Below the pieces are notes generated by a model. The model was not told the DNA's origin. It saw only the letters and a list, made by a program, of their open reading frames with translations, and did not search any database. Positions 8,957 to 53,504 of a DNA stretch of 64,000 nt are shown in pieces. Both the position numbers and the translations under genes were made by a program. Every line of letters begins with the position of its first letter. Position 1 is the stretch's first letter. The stretch comes from a phage, in NCBI GenBank assembly GCA_011911785.1, contig GCA_011911785.1_4084.1; one strand, given 5' to 3'.

Positions 8957-9652
8957 ATGACTCAACAATTTATGTTTGGTGGTTATGCGAATGGTGAAAC
9001 AACTAACATTTCAATTCCATATGTAGTTGAAAAAGTTAATGGCAACGAACGTACTTATGATCTAGCATCTCGTATGATGCAAGACCGTATCATTTTCCTT
9101 GATACTGATTTCAACGACCAGATGGCACATATCATCAAGCAACAATTGGTGTGGTTGGATTCTCAAGGTTCTGAACCAATTACTCTTTATATTTCCTCGC
9201 CGGGTGGTAGTGTTCATGCAGGTTTGGGTATTTCTGATATTGCTAAATCTTGTGTATCACCAATCCGCACAGTAGTGATGGGTTATGCAGCATCAATGGG
9301 TTGCTACACACAATCAGTAGTGGGTACTAAAGGTTATCGTCTTGGTGGTAAACGCTCGTACTTTATGTGTCACCAAGTAAGTTCTGGTACACAAGGTCTG
9401 ATCACTGATCAGAAAATTGCACTAAAACACTCTGATGCATTGAACACATTGCTGACGAAAGAAATCGCTGAAGCTGTAGGTGTTTCTCATGAAAAACTAC
9501 TAGAAGATGCGGACCGCGATTTGTGGTTGAGTGCAGATGAAGCACTTGAGTATGGTGAACTTGGATTTATCGATGGTATTATCCTTGGTCCACGTAATGA
9601 AAAAGGTCAATACCTAGTTAAACGTCGCGGTGGCGTGGAAGAGTGGGTATAA
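8957..9652 (+). CDS. clpP: ClpP-family serine protease
   Basis: ISSPGGSVHAGLGISD and MGYAASMG match ClpP signatures (INSPGG / GQAASMG), followed by a His-containing HQVSSG segment. Confidence 0.75.
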   Translation: MTQQFMFGGYANGETTNISIPYVVEKVNGNERTYDLASRMMQDRIIFLDTDFNDQMAHIIKQQLVWLDSQGSEPITLYISSPGGSVHAGLGISDIAKSCVSPIRTVVMGYAASMGCYTQSVVGTKGYRLGGKRSYFMCHQVSSGTQGLITDQKIALKHSDALNTLLTKEIAEAVGVSHEKLLEDADRDLWLSADEALEYGELGFIDGIILGPRNEKGQYLVKRRGGVEEWV

Positions 9653-17283: not shown

Positions 17284-17295
17284 AATAGTTTTACC

Positions 17296-19185: not shown

Positions 19186-19205
19186 ATAATAACCTCCGGT
19201 ATAAA

Positions 19206-19231
19206 AGATGCCACCGAAATGGCATCTTTTT
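19206..19231. terminator. terminator-like hairpin
   Basis: agatgcca-ccgaaa-tggcatct followed by ttttt on the plus strand; lies between two minus-strand genes, so orientation and function are uncertain. Confidence 0.35.
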
Positions 19232-19243
19232 GTTTATTTGTAA

Positions 19244-21742
19244 TTAACGAATTATGAAACAGGTGGCATATGCTTCAGGTGGGGTTTGGTCAGGATTAAT
19301 TGGAGTACTGACAAATCTCATAGAGGTTGGACCTGTTGGAGCATTATCTTTAACTTTAAAGTGTGCAACATCCATAGTACTATCCTGTTGATATTCCAAT
19401 ATAGTTTCATCGACATACCATGTACCTTTATGTTGTGCACTTTCTGGTTCATATATAACTGTAACATAGAAATCACTTCCACTTGATGTTGGAATGCGGG
19501 ATGGTGTTATAGATACACTATCGGTGTTTGAAAATTCAATTGTACATGTATGCACTGCTTTATTTTTCCCATCACCATAATCATAAGTGATATCAGTATC
19601 CCCTGCCTCAACATTTTTTAAGACATAGAAACCAACTTCATCATGAGGGTAATCACTTGGCAAAAATGCAATCTTATCCATATCATAAGTCCATGTACCT
19701 TTATGTTTAGCATCGTCAGGATCGTAACTAACAACTATATTAATTGCGTCACCTGGTTTCAAGGTAGACTTCGGTGGAATTAATGAGATTGATTCAACGT
19801 CAGGATATTTCACTATACATTTATAATTCACTGGGTCAACACCATCTGGCTGGAATGAAAGAATTACACCATCTTCAGTTGTTGGTTTTAATGCTCTAAA
19901 CACAGTAACATCAGGAGTACATTTTTCTTTAACAAACTCAACGATGTCCGCTGGGTAGTTCCATTGTAGACGACCAGTATGTTGTGCAGTTAGAGGCATG
20001 TAGGTCATATTGATGGTAAATTCTTCACCAACTTCATGTGCACCATTATCGGGGGATATAGCAACACTGTCCAAATATGAATACCCAACTGTAATGTTAA
20101 ATGCAACAGCATTTTCCTCTTTCACACTTTCAGGAATAAAATAGACATTTGTTGATTTTGATGTTGATTTAGAACTCTTAACATACCCAACATCAGCAGT
20201 TGTTCCGGTCCCCATTGCTGCAACATCTTCATCTTCTATTTTCCATGTACCTGCATGTTTTGCTGTTTCTGGATTATAATTCACCTTAACAATACTGATA
20301 TCATCATACGAAATTACATCACTAGGTGGTGTATAGGAATACGATATCAAATCAGAATAATCTATTTTACAAGGATAAGAATACTTAGAATATCCAGAAT
20401 CGAAAGTTAGATTAATTGTATCATTTGGTAATCCTGCGGCAAATGTGGATTTAAGGGAAGAGAATGTATATAGATCATCTTGTGGTGCACCTGAAAGTTT
20501 CACATATTGTTCAACATCTTGTATATCCCAAATACCACTATGTCTAGCAGTGTCTGGATTATATTTCACTTTAACATTGAATACATCTAGTGCTTTGATT
20601 TCTTTTGATGGGGGATCAAATTCTATTGAAATTAAATCCGAATAGTCAGGAACTATATTGATTGCGTTTGATTGAACCCCACCAGATGATTGGAAATATA
20701 TTGGTAATGCTGAATCGAACGGTTTGATAGTACTGAAATATCCACGGGTATCAGTTGATTTAGCAGATTCAAATTTGAAATGCTCTTCATCAAAAACCCA
20801 TTTACCAGTTTTGTTTGCAGACGCTGGTTCGAATACCATATCAATGAAAAAGCCATTTGGTACTTTGACGATCTTATCATCGGATTGTGCTGTAATTGAT
20901 TTAACTGGTGAATAAGTTACAGTAACGTTACATTCAGCTTTTGCTTTATCATTACAAATATAGCTAATAGTACTGGCAGTTTGTGGTGGTGTACTTTTAA
21001 GTGCAATGAAGGTTGCACCATCTAAGCCACTTTTTGTTTCATTAAGACTGAAGACTTCCTCATCATATTTCCAAATTCCCATTTTATCCGCAGTTGTTGG
21101 ATCATATGTTAATGCTAGATAGAATGATTCACCAACTTCACAACTTACTGTTTGTGGGTCAATTGTAACTGAATTGATTGGGTTATTAGTTAAGAAGTAA
21201 TTACATTCTGCACTTACTGAACCTACTGATGCAGTTATTTTACCATTACAAGGGTCGGTTGATATAACATTAAACAATCCAGATTTTCTAGAACTAAGCA
21301 TTGGCACTAACGCAATTTGTGTGTTATCATAATCCCATACTGGTACGTCTATACCATTATCGGGTGAATATTCCACTTCAATGGTGAATTTATTAGGACT
21401 AAGCCCCGATGTCATTAAACTTGGGGTGAGTTTCATTGAACTCACTGATTGGTTTAATACTGTAATTGTACAAGTCGCTGATGATGATTTATTATCATCT
21501 GGTGTAAATGTAATGGTTGCTGTTCCTGTTTTTAGAGCAGTATAATCACATTGTAAACCACTTCTATATCCTATTTTAACAACGTCAGGATTATCACAAT
21601 CCCATTGACCTGCTTTATGTGTCCATGATTGTGGTTCATAGACTACGTTTAATTCAGATGTATCGTTAACATAGACCACTGAAGACCTACCTTCCTTAAA
21701 ATGAACGGAACGCAATGTTTCGAATTGATTTGTATTTTTCAT
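19244..21742 (-). CDS. Ig-like repeat protein (second repeat class)
   Basis: 832 aa; about 9 repeats of the same unit. Confidence 0.5.
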   Translation of the reverse strand: MKNTNQFETLRSVHFKEGRSSVVYVNDTSELNVVYEPQSWTHKAGQWDCDNPDVVKIGYRSGLQCDYTALKTGTATITFTPDDNKSSSATCTITVLNQSVSSMKLTPSLMTSGLSPNKFTIEVEYSPDNGIDVPVWDYDNTQIALVPMLSSRKSGLFNVISTDPCNGKITASVGSVSAECNYFLTNNPINSVTIDPQTVSCEVGESFYLALTYDPTTADKMGIWKYDEEVFSLNETKSGLDGATFIALKSTPPQTASTISYICNDKAKAECNVTVTYSPVKSITAQSDDKIVKVPNGFFIDMVFEPASANKTGKWVFDEEHFKFESAKSTDTRGYFSTIKPFDSALPIYFQSSGGVQSNAINIVPDYSDLISIEFDPPSKEIKALDVFNVKVKYNPDTARHSGIWDIQDVEQYVKLSGAPQDDLYTFSSLKSTFAAGLPNDTINLTFDSGYSKYSYPCKIDYSDLISYSYTPPSDVISYDDISIVKVNYNPETAKHAGTWKIEDEDVAAMGTGTTADVGYVKSSKSTSKSTNVYFIPESVKEENAVAFNITVGYSYLDSVAISPDNGAHEVGEEFTINMTYMPLTAQHTGRLQWNYPADIVEFVKEKCTPDVTVFRALKPTTEDGVILSFQPDGVDPVNYKCIVKYPDVESISLIPPKSTLKPGDAINIVVSYDPDDAKHKGTWTYDMDKIAFLPSDYPHDEVGFYVLKNVEAGDTDITYDYGDGKNKAVHTCTIEFSNTDSVSITPSRIPTSSGSDFYVTVIYEPESAQHKGTWYVDETILEYQQDSTMDVAHFKVKDNAPTGPTSMRFVSTPINPDQTPPEAYATCFIIR

Positions 21743-21832
21743 TATATAATCTCCTATAAATGAATTTGTATTATGGGGAACTTATAATTAAGCTCCCCGT
21801 CGAACGAGTTTATATTATACACCTCCGATATT

Positions 21833-24800
21833 TTAAAAATCTGCTGTTATGGTTATTGTCTTGGTAATCCCAGCCTCTTTAACTTCATACGTAAGCGTAA
21901 TTGGATTCTCTGGCTTCTTGATTAGATAAAAATGAACTATCGTTTTCATTGGAGGCCAGTTCACTGAAAGATACGTCTCGTCATAAGTTAATGTACCAGT
22001 ATATAACGCATCGTCAGGATGGTTTGTAAGGAATGCAACATACATTTTACCTAATGCTGTGATGTTTACATGATCAGACTTTGTGGTCTTTTCAATAAAA
22101 TCAACTGATACCAAAGGTGACGCAGTTGATACAATATGAACAGAATTAGTTGAATATGCATCATGACCTGTACCTTGGGTGTACTTAAATTTTACATCAA
22201 TCCCTTCTGGTGGAGTTTCTAATATTGTCATTAAGTTATGAGAATCACTAAAAACCTTATAATCATATGGAGGAAGTGCAACAACTGATTCATGTAATCT
22301 ACCATCACCTATTGCATCAGGTGGATTTACGGTCATAACTACATAGTTTCCATATGAGTTTGCTTTTGTTGTAAACGAATCTGGTGTTATGGTGAATGAT
22401 TCAACATATGGTCTTAGTGGAGTTATCTGTGCTGTTGCAGGAGCGTAACCAGGAATTGTATAAACTAAATCAAACGGAGCACCAAGCACTTCAGCAGTTT
22501 TATCCACTGGTATTTCATCCTCGTCAAAATAATCTATACCGTAAACTGGTTGTTGATAATAACTATCACCAACAGATGGATCGTAAGCTGTAACTTTAAA
22601 ATATGCTTCAGTCAATGTACTCTTAGCTGGGATATATTCGCAGTAGTTTAATGCCTCACCACTAAATGTACCAGCAAGTGGTATAACATTAGATGGTTTG
22701 AAAACAATATTAACTTTAAATTCCATACCTTTGTGGTAATCATTTTTACCAGGCAAACCAAGACTTATTGATTGTATAATATCATGAACAACCGTACATT
22801 TGTTTGTTGCAGTTTTACCCGAACTTGTATAAATCAATGAAATTGGATTTGGATCTGATTTCAATGCTTTAAAATGTGCACGGTCAGGGGTACTGTCTGA
22901 AAGTAATTCAAAATACCCAACTGCAACTGACCCATCAGATAAACTATAAGACCAAGAACCTTTATGATCTGCTGTATCAGGTGTATATGTGATATCAATA
23001 TAGAAATCATCACCAGCATCCAACTCTTCTGTAGCTGGAGATAATGAAATAGATTCCAATACACTATAATCAACATAACATATAGTTTTATTCGAAACAA
23101 TGTTACCACAAATAAACTGCAATTCTAACTCATCAACCGTTTTAATAGCTTTAAAGTGTGCACGGTCTGGTGTACTATCACTCTCAAGTGTTAAGTACTG
23201 GTCAAATCCAGATGTATTCCACGTACCAGTATGTTCAGCACTATCTGGTGTATATGTAATATCAATATAGAAATCATCACCAGTCTTCACTTCTATAGTA
23301 CTTGGCGAAATAGTAATTGCAGACAATGCACTATGTTGTATTGTACAAGTAGATGAACTAGATTTACCAGAACTGGTATATGTCAGTGTTATTGGTGAAC
23401 TGCTATATTTTTTAACTTGGAAGTGTGCTTTATCTGGAGTACTATCACTTTCAAGAGATAAGTATTCTTCAAAATCACTGGTATTCCATGTACCAATATG
23501 CTGTGCAGTATCAGGTGTATATGTGATATCAATATAGAAATCATCGCCAATAGCTGGAGTTACCGATTCAGGGGACAATTTAACATCAGTTAATTGTGAA
23601 TAAGGTATAACTGTTACATCAGCACTTTTCTTTGCACTAGTAAATGTTAACTTTTTAGAATCAGGTAGCTGTTTGATTACATCAAAATAAGCTTCACTTT
23701 CAGTACTTCTAGAGGTTAGATATGAGAAATAATCAGTTTCATAACTCCATTTACCAGATTTCAAAGCGGTATCCGGCACATAAGTTATAGTAACATCAAA
23801 CGTATCACCATCATTAACATTAATACTAGGTGGATTTACTGATACAGATTCTAACTTGTCATAAAGAATAGAGCATGTATTTTCTGTGGTTACACCAGCA
23901 CTAGAGAATGATATTTGTTGTGTACTTTCGGTTGATGGTGGCTTTGCAATAACTTCAAATACCCCAACATCGGCGGTGCTTTTTGATGTATCTAACTTAA
24001 GATATGTTTCATCATACGCCCAATCACCTTTATGTTCAGCAGTGCTTGGTTCGTATGTTATAGCAATATCAATAATATCACCAACTGATACGGTTTCATT
24101 ATCAGGTGATAATGTCAATTTAACCAACTTGTCATATTTCGCAGTACATGTATTTTCAGCATATTTTCCATTAGTACTGGTATATTTCAATACAGTTGGT
24201 GTATCTGAACGTTTGAGTACTTGGAATTGCTGCTGTTCATAATTAATTGGTTCAATCAATTTAATCATATCAGTATCATATTCCCATGTACCAATATGCT
24301 GAGCACTATCTGGTGTATAGGATATGTCTATTGTGAATGTATCACCATTCAAAACAGTTTCAGAATCAGGAGTTAAATCCACTGATGTTAATAAATCATA
24401 ACGTGCATCACATGTATTAGTTTTAGTGATTCCTGCACTAGTAAAAGATATTACCAATGGTGTATCAGATTTTTTCAGCACTTTAAATTGTGGTTTATCG
24501 TAATCATCTGGGTTCAATAACTCCAAATGGTCTTTATCATAATCCCATGTACCAATGTGTTGTGCTGTATCAGGTGTATATGTAATATCAATTACAAATG
24601 TTTCACCCAATGGGACAATTTCACTAGCTGGTGTTATTGAGAAATCGGTTAATTTATCATACTTAGCATCGCAAATACTATTACCCTTAACACTACCTTG
24701 TTCAAATGTTATTGTTAATGGAGTATCAGACTTTTTGATTACTGTAAAATTACCTTTCTCGTACTCAACACTTTGAGCCGCATTATATTGTAAGTACTCT

Positions 24801-27478
24801 TTGTCATAAACCCATTCACCAATGTGTTGAGCCGTATCAGGTTCATATTTCACTTCAATATCAAAAGATTCACCCAACGGAACAGTTTCATTTGCAGGTG
24901 ATAAAGTAATCCCAGTAAGTGCATCATAACTTGCAACACATGTGTTTGTTGCGGAGTGTCCAGTTGACTTATATGTTAATGTTAATGGAGTATCTGATTT
25001 CTTAATAACCTTAAATATCCCTTTTTCATATTCTCCATTATTAAGATGTTCCAAATATTCATGGTCGAATAACCAAACACCAAAATGATATGCAGTATCA
25101 GGTTCATATTTTATATCAATAGTGAATGTTGAACCTAATGGGGCAATTTCGGATGTAGGAGAAAGTGAAATCCCAGTTAATACATCATGTGATGAATCAA
25201 CGTTAACATATGCTGGATATGCATTACCATTTTGGTAGCTCATACTAACATTTGGTGATTTCTCAATAATTTTAAAGTGAGCACGTTCAGGTGTACTGTC
25301 ATCTAAATGAGTCAAATAATATTGATTGTAATACCACGCACCAGCATGTTCTGCATTATCAGGTTCATATGTTAAATCAATATAGAAATCAGTTCCGACT
25401 GGTGCAATAATTTTAGAAGGATTTGCTGTTATTATAGTTGGTGTTACAAAAGGAACACTACCATAAATGGTATTACTTGTAATGGAACCAGACTTATAGG
25501 TAAATGCAAGTTTATCTTGTGTATCTTTAATAGCTAAGAATCTTGCATAATTTGGTGCTTCTGGGTCCATTCCTTGATACTCAAAATGTTCTTTGTCATA
25601 TTCCCATGTACCAGTGTGTTCTGCTTCATCAGGTGTATAAGTTAGTTCAATATATGCAAGTTCACCAACAGTTAATATTTGGAATCGTATAGGGTCATAA
25701 GCAGCAATTGTAAGTGATTCCAAATCTTTATAATCAACTTTACACTCATTAGTTGCAGTAACTTTACCTTCTGAGTACACTAAATCAATTTTATCAATAT
25801 GTTTTAATGCTTTAAAGTGTGCTTTATCAGCAGTTGACTTAGTACTATCAAATGTGATATATTCTTTAAACGTATCAGTATTCCATGCACCTTCGTGTTT
25901 AGCGGTGTCTGGTACATAAGATATCTCAATATCAAATTCATCACCAATCTTCACAGTTTCTGATGTAGGATTCAGTACTAGTGAAGTTAAATCAGAATAT
26001 AGGACATTGAAGCTAACTGTTTTAGCATCACCACCACCATCTGGGGTAAATGTTGCAGTTGTGGTTCCTTGCTTCTTGGCTACGTAGTACATTACATCAT
26101 CGGTACTTTTAGTTGTATCTTCTTCAACGATCCCAACTGGTTCAAATGTCCAAGTACCACCTTTTTGTGCATTGTTTGGTGTATAAGTAATGTCAATTTT
26201 ACCAGTACTTTCTGGTTTGATATTGGATACAGTACTAGGTGTTAACACTACACTTTTCAAATCAGCATACTCAACCGTGAAGTTGACTTCTGGTAAATCT
26301 TTAGTATAATCTGCACTTGGTGTAAATGTAGCTTTTGTACTACCATGTTCAAGTAGCTGGTAATCAAATTTAGTATCTGTATGCGAAATACTTTTTACTA
26401 TATTAGTATCATCAATTGACCATGTTCCACCTTGTTTGGCGTTATCAGGGGTATAGATTATTTCAATCGTGCCAGATGAACCCGCTTTGTCATCTACAGA
26501 GGCAGGTTTGAGTTCTACATTGTCCAACGCAGCATAAGTTATGTCAATTGTTGCAGCCGCAGTTTTAGTTTTATCTTCATTTAATGTGAAGAGTACACTG
26601 GTGGTTGGGTGAACATTTTCTTTGACAGCTATTGCTTTAAACGTTATACTATTTTCGTCTTCACTTACAACTTCAAGAACATTTGTGTTGTATCCACTCC
26701 ATACACCACCACGTTTAGCTGGGGCATAATCGACTGGATCATAAACAACAGATACAGTAAATGTATCATTAAGTTTTACATCAATTGGGTTTGGGTTGAG
26801 AGAAACACTAAAGAGGACGTTAGGATCATCATGTAAATGACCGAACGCGGTTGATTTTAAATGAGGTTTGTTTGTGGGAGTGAATGATATTTCTACTGGA
26901 ATATCACCATCAATGACTCCTGCTTGGAGGATAATACTATTTTTATCACTATGTACTTCAGTTAAATGTTCAGTTGGGTATGTCCATGTACCAGATTGGT
27001 CAGGCCAATCTTTCGGAGAGAAGTAAGCAGTGAATTGCATTTTATCATTTGAATAAAGAACAAAATCATCTGGCTTTATTATAACTTTAGACAACGAATT
27101 TGGCTCCACGTTCGTTCTTCTGAAAATTATTTCACCATTATGTAATTTTATTTTATTACTTTGATATTGAATACCAAAACCATACTTATTATTAATAGCA
27201 TCAGCTTCTTTTATGCAAAATGTATTATTTGCTAAAGATTTAGCAATTTCAGCATCGTCATCATCATACAACAATGTTGATTTATCTTTATTTCTACCTG
27301 TGATTTTTATATCTTTGTAAATCTTGAAATTTTCAGATATTAAATCATATGAATCGAATGTTCTTTGTTTTATAACATACAATTCTTTAACAAATACTTG
27401 CCCTTCTATCTTTGCAGCAGTAACCTGCAATCCACCTATAACAAATGGAAATTGATCTAAGCCAGCTATTGGTTTCAT
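21833..27478 (-). CDS. giant Ig-like repeat protein with shared N-terminal module
   Basis: 1881 aa; N-terminus paralogous to 13049..15475 and 12617..13030, then about 18 repeats of the ~90-aa unit. Confidence 0.55.
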   Translation of the reverse strand: MKPIAGLDQFPFVIGGLQVTAAKIEGQVFVKELYVIKQRTFDSYDLISENFKIYKDIKITGRNKDKSTLLYDDDDAEIAKSLANNTFCIKEADAINNKYGFGIQYQSNKIKLHNGEIIFRRTNVEPNSLSKVIIKPDDFVLYSNDKMQFTAYFSPKDWPDQSGTWTYPTEHLTEVHSDKNSIILQAGVIDGDIPVEISFTPTNKPHLKSTAFGHLHDDPNVLFSVSLNPNPIDVKLNDTFTVSVVYDPVDYAPAKRGGVWSGYNTNVLEVVSEDENSITFKAIAVKENVHPTTSVLFTLNEDKTKTAAATIDITYAALDNVELKPASVDDKAGSSGTIEIIYTPDNAKQGGTWSIDDTNIVKSISHTDTKFDYQLLEHGSTKATFTPSADYTKDLPEVNFTVEYADLKSVVLTPSTVSNIKPESTGKIDITYTPNNAQKGGTWTFEPVGIVEEDTTKSTDDVMYYVAKKQGTTTATFTPDGGGDAKTVSFNVLYSDLTSLVLNPTSETVKIGDEFDIEISYVPDTAKHEGAWNTDTFKEYITFDSTKSTADKAHFKALKHIDKIDLVYSEGKVTATNECKVDYKDLESLTIAAYDPIRFQILTVGELAYIELTYTPDEAEHTGTWEYDKEHFEYQGMDPEAPNYARFLAIKDTQDKLAFTYKSGSITSNTIYGSVPFVTPTIITANPSKIIAPVGTDFYIDLTYEPDNAEHAGAWYYNQYYLTHLDDSTPERAHFKIIEKSPNVSMSYQNGNAYPAYVNVDSSHDVLTGISLSPTSEIAPLGSTFTIDIKYEPDTAYHFGVWLFDHEYLEHLNNGEYEKGIFKVIKKSDTPLTLTYKSTGHSATNTCVASYDALTGITLSPANETVPLGESFDIEVKYEPDTAQHIGEWVYDKEYLQYNAAQSVEYEKGNFTVIKKSDTPLTITFEQGSVKGNSICDAKYDKLTDFSITPASEIVPLGETFVIDITYTPDTAQHIGTWDYDKDHLELLNPDDYDKPQFKVLKKSDTPLVISFTSAGITKTNTCDARYDLLTSVDLTPDSETVLNGDTFTIDISYTPDSAQHIGTWEYDTDMIKLIEPINYEQQQFQVLKRSDTPTVLKYTSTNGKYAENTCTAKYDKLVKLTLSPDNETVSVGDIIDIAITYEPSTAEHKGDWAYDETYLKLDTSKSTADVGVFEVIAKPPSTESTQQISFSSAGVTTENTCSILYDKLESVSVNPPSINVNDGDTFDVTITYVPDTALKSGKWSYETDYFSYLTSRSTESEAYFDVIKQLPDSKKLTFTSAKKSADVTVIPYSQLTDVKLSPESVTPAIGDDFYIDITYTPDTAQHIGTWNTSDFEEYLSLESDSTPDKAHFQVKKYSSSPITLTYTSSGKSSSSTCTIQHSALSAITISPSTIEVKTGDDFYIDITYTPDSAEHTGTWNTSGFDQYLTLESDSTPDRAHFKAIKTVDELELQFICGNIVSNKTICYVDYSVLESISLSPATEELDAGDDFYIDITYTPDTADHKGSWSYSLSDGSVAVGYFELLSDSTPDRAHFKALKSDPNPISLIYTSSGKTATNKCTVVHDIIQSISLGLPGKNDYHKGMEFKVNIVFKPSNVIPLAGTFSGEALNYCEYIPAKSTLTEAYFKVTAYDPSVGDSYYQQPVYGIDYFDEDEIPVDKTAEVLGAPFDLVYTIPGYAPATAQITPLRPYVESFTITPDSFTTKANSYGNYVVMTVNPPDAIGDGRLHESVVALPPYDYKVFSDSHNLMTILETPPEGIDVKFKYTQGTGHDAYSTNSVHIVSTASPLVSVDFIEKTTKSDHVNITALGKMYVAFLTNHPDDALYTGTLTYDETYLSVNWPPMKTIVHFYLIKKPENPITLTYEVKEAGITKTITITADF

Positions 27479-27611: not shown

Positions 27612-27640
27612 CTTGACATAATTGATCAATTATTGTACTA
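27612..27640 (+). promoter_or_regulatory. sigma70-like promoter (TTGACA-17 nt-TACTAT)
   Basis: Perfect -35 TTGACA at 27612..27617, 17-nt spacer, -10-like TACTAT; in the divergent intergenic region upstream of 27677. Confidence 0.45.
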
Positions 27641-27676
27641 TTATTTATGTTCCTTAACTCAAATCCGAGGTAATCA

Positions 27677-28282
27677 ATGAAACGAATCTTGAAAGAGATT
27701 GTACAAACCGTTGTTTTAATCGCTGCATTAAACTTTCCGGCAGCGGCAGAAGTTTCAAAAAAATCATCTGTTTTTCTATTAAATGAACATGTTGTGTCAA
27801 TTGATGGTGAACTAAATGATGAAACTGTACAAGAAGTGAAGAAGTTGTGGAAAGAAACAAGATTTAAAATTTTAACAATTACATCACCTGGTGGAGATTT
27901 TGATGCAGGATTAGATTTGGGATTGTTTGTGGCTGCTAAAAAGTTAACTGTTTATGTCCCAAAGCAATGTAATTCGTCTTGTAGTCTGGTTTTTTTCTCT
28001 GCATCATCTGAACGTAGGGATATGAGTGATACCGCAGTGATGGGTTTACATAACATCTCACTAGTATCTACGAATGGTGCAGATCCAGATACGACATTCG
28101 TTTCAGTTAGACAGTTGATGGAGTTTACACATCAAGTCTCAACTAAAGTTGGGTATCTTTTTACACTGTACGCACATAACGGTATCCCCGCTGAAACACT
28201 CATTGATATCAGTACTAAACATGGTGAGGATATCGTTGTCTTACGAAGATCAGATCTCGTTAAATGGGGAATCATTCAATAA
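27677..28282 (+). CDS. secreted ClpP-like protein
   Basis: N-terminal signal-peptide-like segment (VVLIAALNFPAAAEV); ILTITSPGGDFDAG resembles the ClpP SPGG motif. Confidence 0.4.
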   Translation: MKRILKEIVQTVVLIAALNFPAAAEVSKKSSVFLLNEHVVSIDGELNDETVQEVKKLWKETRFKILTITSPGGDFDAGLDLGLFVAAKKLTVYVPKQCNSSCSLVFFSASSERRDMSDTAVMGLHNISLVSTNGADPDTTFVSVRQLMEFTHQVSTKVGYLFTLYAHNGIPAETLIDISTKHGEDIVVLRRSDLVKWGIIQ

Positions 28283-28409
28283 AAAGTTGTATTTTTTATG
28301 AAGCAATGATATAATCCTAATACTAATTCATGATTTTGGTTAAGGGTGGTGTACTGCCACCCGATTTTAAGATATAATGGTTGTACATTATCAACCAAGG
28401 AAACAAAAA

Positions 28410-28673
28410 ATGACAGAATTATCACATCTTCAAGGCTGGACAGAGTTCATCTTCTATGCTACTATAGTTACATATGGAATCATTGTTCTTTTATCAGTGA
28501 TTATGGCAAGTGATTTCAAGAGTGGTTTTCTTGAAGAAAATGGTGAGTTTTCTTCTAAAACTGAAAAGTACTTTTATTATTTCTTTAAAATTTCGTATAC
28601 AATTTTACTCATAATTTTGGGTTTACTATTGTATTTCATGTACACAATCTTAGATGTAATGCATCTTTTATAA
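28410..28673 (+). CDS. small membrane protein
   Basis: Two hydrophobic helices; start set to ATG 28410 with 'aagga' RBS. Confidence 0.35.
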   Translation: MTELSHLQGWTEFIFYATIVTYGIIVLLSVIMASDFKSGFLEENGEFSSKTEKYFYYFFKISYTILLIILGLLLYFMYTILDVMHLL

Positions 28674-28684
28674 CGGAGATATCA

Positions 28685-29287
28685 ATGACTTGTATTATTG
28701 CTTACACTGATGGTAACACATCTTTTATCGCGGGTGACAAACTGGGTAGTAATGGTTTCACTAAAGCAATTCAAACTGAACCAAAAGTGTTTGAAAAAGA
28801 ATTCATCAAAATCGATGAAAGTGGATTGAATCGCACCAAAGAAGTTATGGCAATGGGATACACGTCGAGCTTCCGCATGGGACAATTGCTGACGTATAAA
28901 CTTGATTTACCTGAACAGCAATCAAACCAAACATTCTCACAGTACTTAGTACTTGAGGTAATCCCACGTATTCGCACACTCTTCAAAGAAGAATGGGGTG
29001 CTCGTGATACAACTCAAGACGTTGGTGGTGGACAGTTTATTATTCTCCACAATCATACAATTTATGAAGTTCAAGAGGATTTTTCAGTACTCCAACCTAA
29101 GACACAAATTACATCTGTTGGTAGTGGTACATATCATGCAATTGCAGCTATGCAAGCATATATTGAAGTTCAAAAAGAAACAGGTGTTAAGATGGTTGAT
29201 CGCACCGATTCTATCTTCAAAATTGTAAGTGATAATGTTACCAGCGTTAGTGCTGAGTATGATTTACTAAGCTATCCTAAGCTGTAA
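28685..29287 (+). CDS. HslV/proteasome-beta-like Ntn hydrolase
   Basis: N-terminus MTCIIAYTDGNTSFIAGDKLG resembles HslV (TTIVSV..NG.VVIAGDGQ) with Thr at position 2; C-terminal SVGSGTYHAIAA resembles the HslV GSGG..A motif. Confidence 0.45.
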   Translation: MTCIIAYTDGNTSFIAGDKLGSNGFTKAIQTEPKVFEKEFIKIDESGLNRTKEVMAMGYTSSFRMGQLLTYKLDLPEQQSNQTFSQYLVLEVIPRIRTLFKEEWGARDTTQDVGGGQFIILHNHTIYEVQEDFSVLQPKTQITSVGSGTYHAIAAMQAYIEVQKETGVKMVDRTDSIFKIVSDNVTSVSAEYDLLSYPKL

Positions 29288-29296
29288 TACAAAAAA

Positions 29297-29321
29297 GGGG
29301 ATTCTTATAATCCCCTATATT
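29297..29321 (+). terminator. rho-independent terminator
   Basis: Hairpin ggggatt-cttat-aatcccc followed by a T-rich tract. Confidence 0.5.
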
Positions 29322-29347: not shown

Positions 29348-29560
29348 ATGATAACTATCAATTACTTTTCACTATGCTTTGTTTATTTTGTTGTTGTATT
29401 TCTAGCAGTTGTAGCGTACAATAATATTAAATGTATATATAAAATTATCAAAAACAAAGAGAAATTCAATGGATGGATGATATATCACATTGTCATCTCG
29501 GTTGTGTGTATCTTATTTGTATACGATTTGAGTTCATTAGGTACAGTAGGTAAGCTATGA
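29348..29560 (+). CDS. small membrane protein
   Basis: 70-aa ORF with two hydrophobic helices. Confidence 0.35.
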   Translation: MITINYFSLCFVYFVVVFLAVVAYNNIKCIYKIIKNKEKFNGWMIYHIVISVVCILFVYDLSSLGTVGKL

Positions 29561-30309
29561 TTTCTGACTCTTTTATAAAAAATAAAGGTAATAAACGTGT
29601 ATTGGTTATTTCCGGTGCAGGTCTATCCGTTGAAAGTGGGATGGAACCGTTTCGCATGGACGATGGCCTATGGGATCAATTTCAAATAAATGATGTATGT
29701 AACATTGCACGTCTTAGTACTAAGTATCATTTAGTACACACTTTCTATAATACATTACGTGTTAAAATGAAAGATTGTGTTCCTAATGATATGCATTATT
29801 ATATCAAATCTCTAGAAGATACATACGGTGATAACTTTTTACATATGACTTCGAATATGGATGATCTCTATACTCGTATTGGTGGCAATGAATTAAAGTT
29901 ACATGGTAATTTAAAAGAAGTTATTGAGAATTTTACAATTGGTGGTGACGATTATAGTATTGTGGATTGTGGTTATGAACCGTACATTCCGAAAGAAGGT
30001 GTCTTTGCGAAACCAAACGTAGTGTTCATTGGTGAATATTATCGTTATGTTGATGGTGAAAAACTCCCAATATACGATGAGCGTAATTTAGTATTGCAAT
30101 CCTTAACAGAAGATGATACAGTTGTAGTCATTGGTAGCAGTGACACAGTACTGAAATGGTCACATCTGGTTGCGTGTTTACCATGCTTTAGTGTTAATAT
30201 CAACATCAGAAAAAATGATAACGATTTCATGTTCAATGAAAAAATTATAAAACCAGCTACAAAAGCGATTCCAGTACTGGAAACTATCATTAAGGATAGA
30301 ATGAAATGA
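29557..30309 (+). CDS. SIR2-family (sirtuin-like) NAD-binding protein, no zinc ribbon
   Basis: GAGLSVESGMEPFR..GLW (sirtuin GAGIS.ESGIP.FR..GLW), TSNMDDLYTRIG (sirtuin TQNID.LH.RAG), catalytic-His context LHGNL; no CxxC pairs. Confidence 0.7.
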   Translation: MISDSFIKNKGNKRVLVISGAGLSVESGMEPFRMDDGLWDQFQINDVCNIARLSTKYHLVHTFYNTLRVKMKDCVPNDMHYYIKSLEDTYGDNFLHMTSNMDDLYTRIGGNELKLHGNLKEVIENFTIGGDDYSIVDCGYEPYIPKEGVFAKPNVVFIGEYYRYVDGEKLPIYDERNLVLQSLTEDDTVVVIGSSDTVLKWSHLVACLPCFSVNINIRKNDNDFMFNEKIIKPATKAIPVLETIIKDRMK

Positions 30310-30854
30310 TTCGAGAAGTACCTCTAGGTGAGTATGGTAAACGAGCAAACTTTGTATTCTGTTACTTCTTTGCTCGAAATTGTAACCCATATAAAGGTTA
30401 TGATTTAAATGATATCCCTGTTGTGAATCTGGTATTACTCCAGCTTCGTTGGGATGGTTTACTGGGTGGTTGTGGTGGAACAGTTGAAGATACCGATGCC
30501 ACCTTAGAAGATGCACTATTCCGTGAAATTCAGGAAGAGATGGATTATAATATTTTCATCGAACAACTGAAACCATTGAAAACTTACGAACTATATCCAG
30601 GAGCACATACTCATAGCTATAGTTATGAAGTTACTTACGAAGAATTGAAAGCGATTCGCGATGGATACAGTACTGCTAAACATGCAAGTGCAGAAGTGGC
30701 TGGTGTTAATTTATGTCACATTTCTCGTTATTCAAAGGGACAAAACCGAGAAGCAGGATATAATAATCTTATGACACAAAACTTCATAGGAACTGCTAAA
30801 ATGGAATTAGAACATCTTGTTCAATCCGAGAATTTACTGATTAGTTACTTATAA
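30306..30854 (+). CDS. hypothetical protein, possible degenerate Nudix hydrolase
   Basis: GGTVEDTDATLEDALFREIQEEMDY contains REIQEE resembling the Nudix box core, but spacing is non-canonical. Confidence 0.35.
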   Translation: MIREVPLGEYGKRANFVFCYFFARNCNPYKGYDLNDIPVVNLVLLQLRWDGLLGGCGGTVEDTDATLEDALFREIQEEMDYNIFIEQLKPLKTYELYPGAHTHSYSYEVTYEELKAIRDGYSTAKHASAEVAGVNLCHISRYSKGQNREAGYNNLMTQNFIGTAKMELEHLVQSENLLISYL

Positions 30855-30865
30855 GGTGAATTATA

Positions 30866-31198
30866 ATGTCTTACTCAATGTTTCTGGATGATATTCGTGA
30901 TCCTGAAAAGTATTATCCAAATCAAAACATGGTTTTATGTCGTGATTATGAAAGTGCATGTGCTTATGTAAATGAACATGGTTTACCACAATTTATTAGC
31001 TTCGATCATGACTTAGGTGATGTTGGGGAGGATGAAAAAACAGGGTATTCATTTGCAAAATTTCTAATTGATTATATGGTCGAAAACAATATCAGTACTG
31101 GATTCGATTATATTATTCATAGCAGTAATCCTGTAGGGAAGGTCAACATTGACACATACTTACAGAATGGTTTTAGATTTTTGAGAGGGGACAATTGA
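30866..31198 (+). CDS. hypothetical protein
   Basis: 110-aa ORF. Confidence 0.4.
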   Translation: MSYSMFLDDIRDPEKYYPNQNMVLCRDYESACAYVNEHGLPQFISFDHDLGDVGEDEKTGYSFAKFLIDYMVENNISTGFDYIIHSSNPVGKVNIDTYLQNGFRFLRGDN

Positions 31199-31494
31199 CA
31201 AAACATCATATACAAAGCTTTATAATCACAAGTGTTATATTTCTTGTTGTGTTTTGGTTCTTCTATCATCAAGATCAAACCAAGCACCGAAATATATACT
31301 ACCGTACTGCTGTTGTTACTGACATAGGGCAGTGTGAAGAAAATACATGTTCATTTACTTATAAGACTGAAGATGGGTCTATTAAGTATGGAGCATCAAG
31401 GAAACCAGTTTCAGTTGGGCAAATTGTTTACAATGAATGCTGGACAGAAAAGGCTCGCGGTCACCGCTGCTACGTTGACTATGAGCCACAATAA
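31195..31494 (+). CDS. hypothetical membrane protein
   Basis: 99-aa ORF with apparent TTG start and N-terminal hydrophobic helix; start uncertain. Confidence 0.35.
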   Translation: MTKHHIQSFIITSVIFLVVFWFFYHQDQTKHRNIYYRTAVVTDIGQCEENTCSFTYKTEDGSIKYGASRKPVSVGQIVYNECWTEKARGHRCYVDYEPQ

Positions 31495-31558
31495 GAAGTG
31501 TCTGAGTCTATAATCTACCGTAGAGCACAAGGATGTGCTCATAACTCAAGGATGTTTT

Positions 31559-32998
31559 ATGAAAAAATACACAATTGACACAAACGTACTACTATCCGAT
31601 CCAAATGCAACCGTAGCATTTGATGGGGCAGCAGTGATTCTACCATTCACTGTTCTTGAAGAACTTGATTCAATCAAGAGCCGTAATGTTGACGTATCAC
31701 GTGATGCACGTTTCGCAATCCGTAACATCGATGCAATTCTGAAAGATGCTACTCATGAAGAAATCAGCAGTACTGGTGTTAATATTGCCAATATCCACAA
31801 AAATATGGATGCATCCAGTAAGCTATTCGTTATGACGAATGAAGAAGCTGAAGCACTTATTCGTATGGGCGGCAGTGAAGATAAAGTAGAAACTCTACTT
31901 AAAAGTACTGTACCAGATGACAAAATCATTCTAGTGGCTTTGGCATCACAATCAGTACTGGTAACTCGCGACATTAACATGCGTATCAAAGCAATGAGCT
32001 ACGGTGTTGAGGTACAAGATTACCGTCATGACGTTGCAATCGAAGATAGTGAGTTGATTCATATTGGTCAGCACCACCTTGATATTGATTTCTGGAAAAC
32101 ATTCAGTGAAGTTAATAATGCTGAAATTAAATCCCAACAAGAAGGTCGCCGTCTATATCACTATATTCCAACCGCATTGATTCAAGATGTTCTACCAGAT
32201 AATCTATGTATTGGTGATTATCTATATGATAATGCTGATGTACTATTCGTATACGAAGGTCAATCTGCTATCGAAGAAGAAGACGGTTCACTAACACCTG
32301 AAGATATTTTGGTATTCCAGGATATTGGTCAAAGTATCGCTCTTCGTGCTAAAGTTTGGGATATTAAAGCAAAGAATATTCAACAGGCACTAGCAATTAA
32401 CAGTATTCTTGACCCTGATGTACATTTGACAGTACTACTCGGTTCAGCAGGTACTGGTAAAACATTGATTACTGTTGCTACTTCACTCGAATTAGTACTA
32501 GAGAAGCGTAAATACGATCGTATAATCTTCTCCAAAACACAAGATTCTCAATTTGAAGAAATTGGTTTCTTGCCTGGTTCTGAAGCTGAGAAGGTCATCC
32601 CATTCTGTGGGGCTGCAATTGATGCACTAGAGTATCTACACAAAGACGATGCTAACCCACAAGGTAGTATTGAAGAGATTCTCAAACGTAACGTAATGCA
32701 GTTTAAAGCATTGAACTTTATTCGTGGTCGTTCTTTTACTAATACAATTCTAATTGTTGATGAATTCCAGAACATCACCCCTGCACAGGCAAAAACTATT
32801 CTTACCCGTGCAGGTCAAAACTGTAAGGTTATCATTATGGGTAACTTAGCACAGATTGATAGTAAGTTTATTAGTCCAGTTAATAGTGGTTTGACATATG
32901 TAACTGAAAAATTCAAAGATTGGGAAGGGTGTCGTATCATTGAATTGGAAGGTGTTGTACGTTCTGCACTTGCAGAGTTTGCAGAAGAAAATATGTAA
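31559..32998 (+). CDS. phoH: PhoH-like ATPase with N-terminal PIN-like domain
   Basis: Walker A GSAGTGKT, Walker B-like VDEFQN; start set to ATG 31559 with 'aagga' RBS. Confidence 0.85.
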   Translation: MKKYTIDTNVLLSDPNATVAFDGAAVILPFTVLEELDSIKSRNVDVSRDARFAIRNIDAILKDATHEEISSTGVNIANIHKNMDASSKLFVMTNEEAEALIRMGGSEDKVETLLKSTVPDDKIILVALASQSVLVTRDINMRIKAMSYGVEVQDYRHDVAIEDSELIHIGQHHLDIDFWKTFSEVNNAEIKSQQEGRRLYHYIPTALIQDVLPDNLCIGDYLYDNADVLFVYEGQSAIEEEDGSLTPEDILVFQDIGQSIALRAKVWDIKAKNIQQALAINSILDPDVHLTVLLGSAGTGKTLITVATSLELVLEKRKYDRIIFSKTQDSQFEEIGFLPGSEAEKVIPFCGAAIDALEYLHKDDANPQGSIEEILKRNVMQFKALNFIRGRSFTNTILIVDEFQNITPAQAKTILTRAGQNCKVIIMGNLAQIDSKFISPVNSGLTYVTEKFKDWEGCRIIELEGVVRSALAEFAEENM

Positions 32999-53066: not shown

Positions 53067-53078
53067 GAGGATATTGAT

Positions 53079-53504
53079 ATGCTGAATTCAAACATTGTTG
53101 AAGCTCTTCGTGTACTGAACCGTGAAGTTAGCCGTATCCATAAAAGTACTGATCGTTATAAAGTAATGCATGAAATTAAACTAGAATTAGAAGCTATCAA
53201 TAAGGGTGAATGGTTCCTTGAACCAGAATACCGTACACGTGGACCAACTGACGTTGAGAAAGCAATTGCAAAATTCATTTCTGGACGTTATGGTGATGTA
53301 TCAGAGGCAGATGTACTGATGAATTTACATTTAACCTCCTTAGAAATTGAAGATAAATTCAAATTTGATTCACTGGACTGGGTAGAAATGATCATGGAAC
53401 TTGAAGATGAATTTAAGGTTGAGATCGAAGATAAGTATGAATCAGGTGATACCAGAATCGTGCATCTCGTTGAACATGTACAAACAATGATCGATAAACG
53501 CTAA
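53079..53504 (+). CDS. hypothetical acidic protein
   Basis: 141-aa ORF. Confidence 0.4.
   Translation: MLNSNIVEALRVLNREVSRIHKSTDRYKVMHEIKLELEAINKGEWFLEPEYRTRGPTDVEKAIAKFISGRYGDVSEADVLMNLHLTSLEIEDKFKFDSLDWVEMIMELEDEFKVEIEDKYESGDTRIVHLVEHVQTMIDKR

What the first reader, a model, noticed from the sequence alone, without database searches (positions are those of the whole stretch)
28685..29287. Phage-encoded HslV/proteasome-like protein without an HslU partner
N-terminus MTCIIAYTDGNTSFIAGDKLG (Thr2 would become the N-terminal nucleophile after Met removal) and the GSG-containing SVGSGTYHAIAA segment resemble HslV. No AAA+ HslU-like gene is visible in this window, so it might hijack host HslU or act as a standalone or decoy subunit.
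Basis: partly seen in the sequence, partly recalled or inferred. Interest (0 to 1): 0.6.

Follow-up and report, generated by a model that had tools for sequence, protein, structure and literature searches.

The report
Phage stand-alone proteasome-like threonine protease
This jumbo-phage gene encodes a small proteasome/HslV-like threonine protease with an intact active site and no HslU partner; the family is large, mostly phage-borne and already annotated, but nobody has tested what it does.

Summary
The ORF at 28685-29287 (+) is real: 200 aa, a GGAG ribosome-binding site, and a hairpin after the stop. It is 100% identical to gp A4_469 ("protease") of Escherichia phage A4, a 355-kb Asteriusvirus.

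It is not HslV proper. It scores 20 bits against a family cut-off of 137. Its pore loop is about 15 residues where HslV has a short linker. No hslU exists in the window or in the whole A4 genome. A ClpA-like AAA+ protein and a true ClpP are encoded elsewhere in the genome.

No partner gene is conserved across 158 loci. The family also occurs in Streptomyces and in Microbacterium and Gordonia phages, whose hosts lack HslVU. That argues against general dependence on host HslU, and the conserved catalytic residues argue against a decoy.

Phage proteasome homologues without AAA+ partners were described by Fuchs et al. 2021, and the family is PHROG 1040.

The parts
28685..29287 (+). CDS of the 200-aa proteasome/HslV-like Thr-Ntn hydrolase, identical to phage A4 gp A4_469
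28675..28678 (+). Shine-Dalgarno GGAG, with a 6-nt spacer to the ATG at 28685
   Evidence: Read directly from the sequence. The stop codon of the upstream ORF is at 28671-28673.
28688..28690 (+). Codon of Thr2, the predicted N-terminal nucleophile (Thr1 after Met removal). The next codon, Cys3, is 97% conserved.
   Evidence: Thr in 211 of 211 relatives and 'MTC' in 198 of 210. A start codon directly precedes the nucleophile (Thr; Ser in one locus) in 155 of 158 loci.
28736..28738 (+). Codon of Asp18, the equivalent of proteasome/HslV Asp17
   Evidence: 100% conserved. Aligned to the HslV AGD motif.
28784..28786 (+). Codon of Lys34, the equivalent of Lys33
   Evidence: 100% conserved. HMMER aligns it to HslV Lys33.
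28793..28846 (+). Residues 37-54: a 14-residue insertion that lengthens the beta-hairpin between the Lys34 strand and the Gly58 strand. It is specific to the Asteriusvirus-like jumbo-phage clade.
   Evidence: The region between F36 and G58 is 21 residues in 48 jumbo-clade sequences and 7 residues in 144 others. In the model it forms long strands 35-43 and 50-59 with pLDDT 93-96.
28856..28885 (+). Residues 58-67, the family signature G-Y-T-S-S-F-R-M-G-Q, lying at the position of the oxyanion-hole glycine (Gly47 in the proteasome) and the start of helix H1
   Evidence: Conservation: G58 99%, T60 96%, S62 99%, R64 98%, Q67 96%. This motif was the pattern used to retrieve 355 viral and 390 genomic loci.
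28985..29029 (+). Residues 101-115, the pore-loop region between helix H2 and the next strand. It is 15 residues long and ends in a conserved Gly-Gly.
   Evidence: It is 15 residues in nearly the whole family (10th-90th percentile 15-16), with net charge about -1. HMMER needs a deletion of about 8 residues in HslV here. pLDDT is lower in this stretch, 68-79.
29120..29128 (+). Codons of Gly146-Ser147-Gly148, the equivalent of HslV Gly123-Ser124-Gly125
   Evidence: G146 100% and G148 99.5% conserved; position 147 is Ser in 123 and Cys in 79 of 211 sequences. NCBIfam HslV models match residues 119-173.
29296..29316 (.). 8-bp GC-rich hairpin (AGGGGATT-CTTAT-AATCCCCT) directly after the stop codon, terminator-like on both strands
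   Evidence: Terminator scan: 6 sites found against 1.6 expected in shuffled sequence.
27613..27641 (+). Best sigma-70-like promoter match (TTGACA-17-TACTAT) in the intergenic gap, at the head of the + strand gene run. Context only; weak evidence.
   Evidence: 10 of 12 positions match, but the total number of promoter-like hits is not above chance (28 against 23.7).
27677..28673 (+). Two upstream genes possibly co-transcribed with the protease: a 201-aa ClpP/crotonase-like protein with a signal-peptide-like N-terminus, and a 98-aa ORF with two hydrophobic segments. Context only, not a conserved partner.
   Evidence: ORFs listed. Only weak ClpP matches and no Pfam hit. Shared only with phage 121Q, at 43% and 39% identity.
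29557..32998 (+). Downstream block conserved together with the protease gene in Asteriusvirus-like jumbo phages: Sir2-like, NUDIX-like, two small ORFs and a PhoH-like ATPase. Context only.
   Evidence: Sir2/CobB match of 92 bits. The block is conserved in L015-L018. A4 annotation.

Best explanation
The gene encodes a cytoplasmic, catalytically competent threonine N-terminal-nucleophile peptidase of the proteasome-beta/HslV superfamily. It belongs to a large, mostly phage-borne clade of 'group I' proteasome homologues, most likely the AAH family of Fuchs et al. 2021, and it is not HslV itself.

Inferred mechanism:
1. Host methionine aminopeptidase removes Met1, because Thr is a permissive second residue. 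This frees the alpha-amine of Thr1. No propeptide has to be cleaved.
2. Thr1, Lys33 and Asp17 (residues 2, 34 and 18 here), together with the Gly58 loop and the Gly-Ser-Gly motif, form a classical proteasome-type active site.
3. By analogy with HslV and BPH, the subunits probably assemble into a double ring with the active sites inside. The conserved 15-residue pore loop would line the entrance.
4. The enzyme works without a dedicated AAA+ unfoldase of its own. It would act either on peptides and unfolded or specific proteins, or with an unidentified general host factor.
5. It is made during the early or middle, metabolic phase of infection, not during head assembly.

Shown here: the fold, the conserved catalytic residues, the lack of a propeptide, the lack of any linked AAA+ gene, and the non-HslV features. 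Inferred: the ring assembly, actual protease activity, the substrates and the timing of expression.
For: Fold:
- AF2 model with pLDDT 91.5 and pTM 0.88, with helices H1-H4 all present.

Active site:
- T2, D18, K34 and G146 are 100% conserved, G148 99.5% and G58 99%, across 211 sequences down to about 25% identity.
- The spacing T2-D18-K34 is identical to that of the E. coli HslV precursor.
- A start codon directly precedes the nucleophile (Thr; Ser in one locus) in 155 of 158 loci.

Not HslV:
- NCBIfam HslV models give 20 and 18.8 bits against cut-offs of 137 and 157.75.
- No Pfam Proteasome hit for this protein, although 8 of 29 relatives hit it.
- The pore loop is 15 residues, where HslV has a short linker (PMC5777263).

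No partner:
- No HslU in the window or in the whole A4 genome.
- Across 158 loci in 70 dereplicated groups, no neighbouring gene is shared by more than 7 groups, and only 1 locus has a weak AAA+ neighbour.
- Fuchs et al. likewise found no co-occurring AAA+ proteins (PMC8665760, Discussion).

Independence from HslU at family level:
- The family is present in Streptomyces (a 50-member cluster), in 5 Microbacterium phage records and in Gordonia phages. Actinobacteria lack HslV (Table 1 of PMC8665760).

Not a head protease:
- A4 has a separate capsid maturation protease next to the portal, scaffold and capsid genes.
- This gene sits among Sir2, NUDIX, PhoH, deaminase and RNR genes. In T5-like phage Sw2 it sits among the RNR, DHFR and ThyA early genes.

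Under selection:
- 79-80% identical to its 121Q-type orthologues, while its upstream neighbours are 39-43% identical.
Against: - No member of this clade has been assayed.
- The two best-studied relatives argue for caution. HslV alone is nearly inactive and needs allosteric activation by the HslU C-terminal tails (PMC6429459). BPH was inert on all standard substrates tested (PMC5777263). Partner-independent activity is therefore unproven for any group I homologue.
- Ring assembly could not be tested.
- The 14-residue hairpin insertion specific to the jumbo-phage clade could alter assembly or cover a surface.
- E. coli does have HslU, so lineage-specific use of it is not excluded.
- Assignment to AAH rests on distribution and architecture only. 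The reference sequence could not be retrieved.
- The timing of expression is inferred from gene neighbourhood, not measured.
Confidence: 0.6

Rival explanations
1. Host-HslU hijack. The phage subunit forms HslV-like hexameric rings that dock host HslU through its C-terminal tails. This would create a hybrid ATP-dependent protease with altered specificity, or compete with host HslV for HslU.
For: - HslV is among the closest solved structures.
- The profile-profile match to E. coli HslV has 96.6% probability.
- The HMMER alignment puts a conserved aromatic residue (F63: 88% Phe, 9% Tyr) on HslV Phe54, one of the HslU-tail pocket residues (PMC6429459).
- The E. coli host encodes HslU.
- The phage encodes no HslU of its own, although other jumbo phages do.
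Against: - The family is present in Streptomyces genomes and in Microbacterium and Gordonia phages, whose hosts lack HslVU (Table 1 of PMC8665760).
- The pore loop is 15 residues, as in the unfoldase-independent BPH, not the short HslV linker (PMC5777263).
- HslV's basic pore cluster R86/R89/K90 is not matched.
- Pocket residue Phe57 aligns to Gly or Gln depending on the method.
- Identity to HslV is only 14-18%.
- BPH lost its HslU-interface residues while keeping the same fold (PMC5777263).
Confidence: 0.12
2. Monomeric or non-compartmentalised specific enzyme: a connectase-like transpeptidase/ligase, or a site-specific endopeptidase that processes one phage or host protein. One example would be cleavage of a defence or regulatory protein.
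For: - The only Pfam hit of the protein itself is to the connectase N-terminal domain, covering residues 1-19, at E=0.007, below the cut-off.
- The jumbo-phage clade has an insertion at the S3/S4 site, where connectase carries its specificity element (PMC8665760 section 3.3).
- BPH's inertness on generic substrates suggests narrow specificity in this group (PMC5777263).
- Some relatives carry C-terminal extension domains.
Against: - Helices H1 and H2, which connectase lacks, are present (PMC8665760).
- The insertion is a beta-hairpin extension, not a two-helix lid, and is absent from most of the family.
- No conserved neighbouring gene that could be a substrate was found.
Confidence: 0.12
3. 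The proteolytic core is used by the phage's own ClpA-like AAA+ unfoldase (A4_579), which is encoded about 82 kb away.
For: The A4 genome encodes a genuine two-ring ClpA/B-type AAA+ protein (AAA_2 171 bits, AAA 108 bits) and a weak ClpS-like adaptor.
Against: - The phage also encodes a true ClpP (143.7 bits, window 8957-9652), which is the expected partner.
- The ClpA-like protein has an LGL tripeptide at residue 626 in its D2 ring. E. coli ClpA has its ClpP-docking IGL loop at this position (from my own knowledge).
- T5-like and most other phages with this family showed no AAA+ gene within 7 kb of it.
- The two genes are far apart in the genome.
Confidence: 0.04
4. Inactive decoy or structural subunit that titrates HslU or poisons host HslV rings without any catalysis.
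For: No partner gene is present, and other proteasome-family members such as the alpha subunits are non-catalytic.
Against: - Thr2, Asp18, Lys34 and the GSG glycines are invariant over 211 sequences at 25-100% identity. That pattern is expected for an enzyme, not a decoy.
- All three paralogues on viral contig L058 also keep these residues.
- 14-18% identity to HslV makes co-assembly with host HslV implausible.
Confidence: 0.03

Closest known systems
[quoted passage not shown]
   Same: - Compact subunit of about 180-200 aa with H1-H4, no propeptide and no H5.
- The Thr1/Asp17/Lys33 triad is present.
- No AAA+ partner.
- Found in Alphaproteobacteria (many Azospirillum), Actinobacteria (Streptomyces), Firmicutes (Paenibacillus, Oceanobacillus, Moorella and Geobacillus phages) and many phages, matching the distribution in Table 1 of the paper.
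   Different: - Membership could not be confirmed against the reference sequence WP_035979212.
- The family found here is far larger (8,574 clusters at 50% identity) than the 240 sequences reported in 2021.
- The jumbo-phage clade adds a 14-residue hairpin insertion.
[quoted passage not shown]
   Same: - Phage-borne, and bacterial copies lie in prophage-like contexts with portal and integrase neighbours.
- Some relatives have C-terminal extensions like RPC (12 of 210).
- No AAA+ partner.
   Different: - PPH is described as about 140 residues and lacking helix H2. This protein and its relatives have a median length of 187 aa and a clear 20-residue H2 (residues 84-103).
- According to that paper's Table 1, PPH is absent from Firmicutes, whereas this family is present there.
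HslV (ClpQ), the peptidase subunit of the HslVU ATP-dependent protease
   Same: - Thr1 is exposed by Met removal.
- Identical T-D-K spacing and the same GSG motif and H3 region.
- PHROG and GenBank name the family after it.
   Different: - 14-18% identity, and 20 bits against the 137-bit family cut-off.
- No hslU gene in the genome.
- A 15-residue pore loop instead of a short linker, and no R86/R89/K90 basic cluster.
- The family occurs in lineages that have no HslU.
BPH (Betaproteobacteria proteasome homologue; PDB 5OVS, 5OVT, 5OVU)
   Same: - No propeptide and no partner unfoldase.
- Elongated pore loop.
- A Ser nucleophile occurs as a rare variant (1 of 158 loci).
   Different: - The BPH pore loop is strongly acidic, whereas here the net charge is about -1, with a conserved Gly-Gly.
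- 13-17% identity.
- BPH is chromosomal and bacterial, not phage-borne.
- The ring symmetry of this protein is unknown.

Membership tests
HslV (HslVU peptidase subunit; NCBIfam TIGR03692 / NF003964) | Score above the curated equivalog cut-off | tested here: not met
   20.0 bits against 137, and 18.8 bits against 157.75. Only residues 119-173 match.
HslV (HslVU peptidase subunit; NCBIfam TIGR03692 / NF003964) | N-terminal Thr nucleophile with Asp17 and Lys33 at the canonical spacing, plus the Gly-Ser-Gly motif | tested here: met
   T2, D18, K34 and G146-S147-G148 are present. All but Ser147 are at least 99.5% conserved in 211 relatives; position 147 is Ser in 123 and Cys in 79.
HslV (HslVU peptidase subunit; NCBIfam TIGR03692 / NF003964) | A cognate hslU gene in the same operon or genome | tested here: not met
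   No HslU in the window or in the whole A4 genome by tblastn or phmmer or by annotation. Only 1 of 158 family loci has even a weak AAA+ neighbour.
HslV (HslVU peptidase subunit; NCBIfam TIGR03692 / NF003964) | Very short H2-S7 pore linker with the basic cluster Arg86/Arg89/Lys90 | tested here: not met
   The loop region is 15 residues with net charge about -1. HMMER needs a deletion of about 8 residues in HslV. The feature is as described in PMC5777263.
HslV (HslVU peptidase subunit; NCBIfam TIGR03692 / NF003964) | HslU C-terminal-tail pocket (Phe54, Phe57, Gln114 in E. coli and H. influenzae HslV) | tested here: inconclusive
   HMMER aligns F63 to Phe54 and G66 to Phe57. hhalign shifts this by one residue, giving R64 and Q67. 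No structural superposition was available. The pocket residues are taken from PMC6429459.
HslV (HslVU peptidase subunit; NCBIfam TIGR03692 / NF003964) | Dodecamer of two hexameric rings | not testable with these tools
   Only a monomer prediction is offered. Concatenated or multimer inputs are not accepted.
Proteasome-beta-like Ntn hydrolases (MEROPS T1 / Pfam PF00227) | Alpha-beta-beta-alpha sandwich fold with the nucleophile at the N-terminus of strand S1 | tested here: met
   [not shown]
Proteasome-beta-like Ntn hydrolases (MEROPS T1 / Pfam PF00227) | Pfam PF00227 match above the gathering threshold | tested here: not met
   No PF00227 hit for this protein even at E<=10. 8 of 29 relatives match at E<=0.01, best 2e-7.
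PHROG 1040 'peptidase HslV family' | Significant match to the PHROG profile | tested here: met
   E=3.6e-21, 77 bits, residues 1-193.
AAH (Fuchs et al. 2021) | Compact group I subunit with H1-H4, no propeptide and no S12/H5 | tested here: met
   Helices at 63-72, 84-103, 149-166 and 170-184, then one final strand. A start codon directly precedes the nucleophile (Thr; Ser once) in 155 of 158 loci.
AAH (Fuchs et al. 2021) | Distribution in Alphaproteobacteria, Actinobacteria, Firmicutes and phages | tested here: met
   Azospirillum, Skermanella, Devosia, Streptomyces, Paenibacillus and Oceanobacillus genomes. Phages of Enterobacteria, Vibrio, Aeromonas, Moorella, Geobacillus and Microbacterium.
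AAH (Fuchs et al. 2021) | Sequence clustering with the reference set (representative WP_035979212) | not testable with these tools
   The reference sequences are not held. The accession look-up of 10 family members did not return it.
PPH (Fuchs et al. 2021) | About 140 residues and lacking helix H2 | tested here: not met
   200 aa here and a family median of 187 aa. H2 is present at residues 84-103 with pLDDT above 90.
BPH | Long, strongly acidic pore loop | tested here: inconclusive
   The loop is long (15 residues) but only weakly acidic: median net charge -1, range -5 to +3.
BPH | Tetradecamer of two heptameric rings | not testable with these tools
   No multimer modelling is available.
Connectase (Pfam PF09894) | Lacks H1/H2 and has a two-helix S3/S4 lid over the active site | tested here: not met
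   [not shown]

The most novel reading that the evidence does not exclude
The phage enzyme is a purpose-built infection weapon: either a stand-alone proteasome-like protease that destroys specific host proteins such as defence or regulatory factors, or a core that captures a host unfoldase (HslU or another AAA+ protein) to redirect host proteolysis. The jumbo-clade hairpin insertion and the conserved pore loop would act as the specificity or docking elements. This would give the first function for any of the orphan group I proteasome homologues (BPH, AAH, PPH).
Probability: 0.12. Interest if true: 0.75.

Novelty: already known. Interest (0 to 1): 0.3.

Why it matters
The biochemical role of stand-alone proteasome homologues (BPH, Anbu, AAH, PPH) is an open question: none has a known substrate. 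This clade is large (8,574 clusters at 50% identity) and mostly phage-borne.

It is present in easily manipulated E. coli K-12 phages. These include T5-like phages such as TrudiRoth, SuperGirl and IrmaTschudi, as well as Asteriusvirus jumbo phages. That makes a genetic and biochemical test of what an unfoldase-less proteasome homologue does readily feasible.

As a genome-scan finding, however, it repeats an existing annotation (GenBank 'protease' / 'peptidase HslV family', PHROG 1040). It also repeats a published observation that phage proteasome homologues lack AAA+ partners (PMC8665760, PMC7823757).

Tried and rejected
- A single-sequence search of the PDB found nothing. Only the family profile reached HslV and BPH.
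- Pfam on the protein alone gave only a sub-threshold 19-residue connectase hit, which I judged to be a generic N-terminal motif.
- PADLOC gave no hit for the protease.
- Capsid-maturation protease was rejected. A4 has a separate one beside the portal, scaffold and capsid genes, and this gene lies in a metabolic block.
- The search for a conserved partner led nowhere. I clustered all ORFs within 7 kb in 158 loci, and nothing was shared by more than 7 of 70 groups. The first run missed family ORFs in high-GC genomes because of my overlap filter, and I redid it.
- The upstream ClpP/crotonase-like gene and the small membrane ORF looked like an operon with the protease, but they are shared only with 121Q and diverge fast. 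I rejected them as partners.
- Residue-level mapping of the HslU-tail pocket failed. hhalign and HMMER disagree by one residue in H1, and hhalign misaligns H2, so the result is inconclusive.
- I tried to confirm the Fuchs family by accession look-up. The representative accessions were not returned, and the paper's supplement holds no sequences.
- Five literature searches found no functional, expression or interaction data for any phage HslV-like protein.
- Oligomer prediction was not possible with the tools offered.

Full report
**Observation**

- A GGAG Shine-Dalgarno sits at 28675-28678, six bases before the ATG. The preceding ORF stops at 28673.
- An 8-bp GC-rich hairpin at 29296-29316 follows the stop codon.
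- The window is 98-99% identical and colinear with Escherichia phage A4 (ON286972, genus Asteriusvirus, 355.5 kb), apart from two replaced segments.
- The protein is 100% identical to A4 gp A4_469, annotated 'protease'. Its 79-80% identical orthologues in phages 121Q and PBECO4 are annotated 'peptidase HslV family'.

**What it is**

Sequence evidence:
- PHROG 1040 'peptidase HslV family' matches at E=3.6e-21.
- The protein is remote from true HslV. The NCBIfam HslV equivalog models give 20 and 18.8 bits against cut-offs of 137 and 157.75, and only over residues 119-173.
- Pfam Proteasome is not hit at all by this protein, although 8 of 29 relatives reach it.
- A single-sequence PDB search finds nothing. 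The family profile finds HslV chains at E=2.4e-9 and BPH at 2e-4.
- hhalign against E. coli HslV gives 96.6% probability.

Structure evidence:
- An AlphaFold2 model built on a 29-sequence alignment is confident (pLDDT 91.5, pTM 0.88). It shows the full proteasome-beta architecture with helices H1-H4.

**Active site**

- In 211 relatives, down to about 25% identity, Thr2, Asp18, Lys34 and Gly146 are invariant. Gly148 is 99.5% conserved and Gly58 is 99% conserved.
- The T2-D18-K34 spacing is the same as in the E. coli HslV precursor, and HMMER puts Lys34 on HslV Lys33.
- 198 of 210 proteins begin 'MTC'. In 155 of 158 independently fetched loci a start codon directly precedes the nucleophile (Thr; Ser in one locus). 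There is therefore no propeptide. Removal of Met1 by methionine aminopeptidase would expose the nucleophile. This last step follows from established knowledge that Thr is a permissive second residue, and is how E. coli HslV itself matures.
- Family-specific signatures are the Cys right after Thr1 (97%) and G-x-T-x-S-F-R-M-x-Q at residues 58-67.

**How it differs from HslV**

- The region between H2 and the next strand is 15 residues in almost every member (10th-90th percentile 15-16, net charge about -1). It ends in a conserved Gly-Gly.
- HslV has only a short linker there, carrying the basic Arg86/Arg89/Lys90 cluster. A long pore loop is the hallmark of BPH, which has no unfoldase (PMC5777263; PMC8665760 section 3.3). 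HMMER needs a deletion of about 8 residues in HslV at this point.
- The Asteriusvirus-like clade alone (48 of 211 sequences) has a 14-residue insertion that lengthens the hairpin between the Lys34 strand and the Gly58 strand.
- I could not decide whether the HslU-tail pocket (Phe54, Phe57, Gln114; PMC6429459) is preserved. The two alignment methods disagree by one residue.

**The 'no partner' claim**

- No window ORF resembles HslU or any AAA+ protein.
- I fetched the whole A4 genome. It has no HslU either.
- It does encode a genuine two-ring ClpA/B-type AAA+ protein (A4_579), a true ClpP (window 8957-9652, 143.7 bits), a weak ClpS-like adaptor, and a poorly scoring ATPase next to a DUF2201/VWA protein.
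- The ClpA-like protein has an LGL tripeptide in D2, at the position where E. coli ClpA has its ClpP-docking loop (the loop position is from my own knowledge). It most plausibly serves ClpP.
- Other jumbo phages, such as the Erwinia Ea35-70 group and Salmonella SPAsTU, do encode HslU-like proteins. Absence here is therefore a real trait of this lineage.

**Family-wide context**

- The profile finds 8,574 clusters at 50% identity, of which 2,247 score E<=1e-30.
- A motif scan confirmed 355 viral contigs and 390 loci in bacterial genomes.
- I clustered all ORFs within 7 kb in 158 loci (70 groups after dereplication). No neighbouring gene recurs in more than 7 groups. The commonest are phage portal, integrase, NAD-dependent DNA ligase and HD-domain genes.
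- Only one locus has a weak AAA+ neighbour. This agrees with Fuchs et al., who found no co-occurring AAA+ protein for any new proteasome homologue (PMC8665760, Discussion).
- Within Asteriusvirus-like phages the gene travels with a Sir2-like, NUDIX-like and PhoH-like block.
- In T5-like Salmonella phage Sw2 it lies among the RNR, DHFR, ThyA and RNase H early genes.
- A4 has a separate capsid maturation protease next to its portal, scaffold and capsid genes.

**Test of the hijack idea**

- The family occurs in Streptomyces (a 50-member cluster), in five Microbacterium phage records and in Gordonia phages.
- Actinobacteria lack HslV/HslU according to Table 1 of PMC8665760. The family as a whole therefore cannot depend on host HslU.
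- This does not exclude opportunistic use of HslU in E. coli. Together with the BPH-like pore loop and 14-18% identity to HslV, it makes hijack a minority hypothesis.
- A dead decoy is unlikely, given invariant catalytic residues.

**Most likely mechanism**

Confidence is about 0.6. The protein is a cytoplasmic Thr1 peptidase that is active after Met removal. It is probably ring-forming, and it acts during early or middle infection without a dedicated unfoldase.

The fold, the active site, the absence of a propeptide and the absence of a linked AAA+ gene are shown. Assembly, activity, substrates and timing are inferred.

Caution is needed. HslV alone is nearly inactive (PMC6429459), and BPH was inert in all standard assays (PMC5777263).

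**Comparison with the known**

- The closest described family is probably AAH of Fuchs et al. 2021. It shares the compact H1-H4 subunit, the lack of a propeptide, and the distribution in Alphaproteobacteria, Actinobacteria, Firmicutes and phages.
- PPH is excluded on length and on the presence of H2.
- I could not confirm AAH membership against the reference sequence.
- The absence of HslU beside a phage HslV-like gene has already been remarked for another jumbo phage (PMC7823757).
- I found no functional study.

**Verdict**

The feature is already known and annotated, so interest is modest (0.3). Its main value is that it offers a tractable E. coli phage system for asking what orphan proteasome homologues do.

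Noticed in passing
window 15621-26996 (also 51745-53100): An 11.4-kb segment with four large minus-strand ORFs (567, 629, 832 and 1881 aa) has no counterpart in phage A4, although both flanks are 98-99% identical. The 1881-aa ORF (21833-27478) is built of many repeats of about 90 aa ('...TYTPDTAQHIGTW...'). It looks like a swapped tail-fibre or receptor-binding cassette.
   Followed up: partly
window 27677-28673: A 201-aa ClpP/crotonase-like protein has a signal-peptide-like N-terminus (MKRILKEIVQTVVLIAALNFPAAAE). It gives only weak ClpP matches and no Pfam hit. A 98-aa ORF with two hydrophobic segments follows it. The pair is shared only with phage 121Q, at 43% and 39% identity. It could be a membrane-associated serine protease pair.
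   Followed up: partly
window 29557-32998: A Sir2/CobB-like gene overlaps the start of a NUDIX-like gene, which has a weak PADLOC PDC-S07 hit. Two small ORFs and a 487-aa PhoH-like ATPase follow. The block is conserved with the protease gene in all four Asteriusvirus-like jumbo lineages examined. It may be an NAD/ADP-ribose-related module.
   Followed up: partly
window 8957-9652; A4 genome 178050-180335 and 263162-263707 (L006:31050-33335, L008:18162-18707): The phage carries its own Clp system: a true ClpP (143.7 bits) inside the window, and a two-ring ClpA/B-type AAA+ protein and a weak ClpS-like adaptor elsewhere in the genome.
   Followed up: partly
L012:4001-5454 (Aeromonas phage 2L372D); L058:7001-10765: Some phages carry several proteasome-like genes side by side. 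The Aeromonas phage has one gene of this family next to a 294-aa protein that hits Pfam Proteasome. Viral contig L058 has three paralogues that all keep Thr1, Asp17, Lys33 and G[SC]G, but two have lost the GYTSSFRMGQ signature. Hetero-oligomeric rings are possible.
   Followed up: partly
family-wide (for example P0048, P0053, P0067, P0072, P0076; L013:4001-4963): About 6% of family members (12 of 210) carry C-terminal extensions that bring them to 230-390 aa. This is reminiscent of the 'RPC' class of Fuchs et al.
   Followed up: no
window 28691-28693 (Cys3): The residue right after the nucleophilic Thr is Cys in 97% of 211 relatives. HslV has Thr at this position. The reason for this near-invariance is unexplained.
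   Followed up: no
L006:6818-9621 (A4 genome 153818-156621): A 441-aa weakly AAA-like ATPase lies next to a 467-aa protein with a DUF2201 putative metallopeptidase domain and a VWA-like domain. This is another possible ATPase-protease pair in the phage, outside the window.
   Followed up: no
L011:3549-3902 (Salmonella phage Sw2); A4 gp A4_80: In T5-like phage Sw2 a DUF3307 membrane protein lies immediately upstream of the protease gene. Phage A4 also encodes a DUF3307 protein, but far away. The small membrane ORF upstream of the protease gene in this window has no Pfam match.
   Followed up: partly
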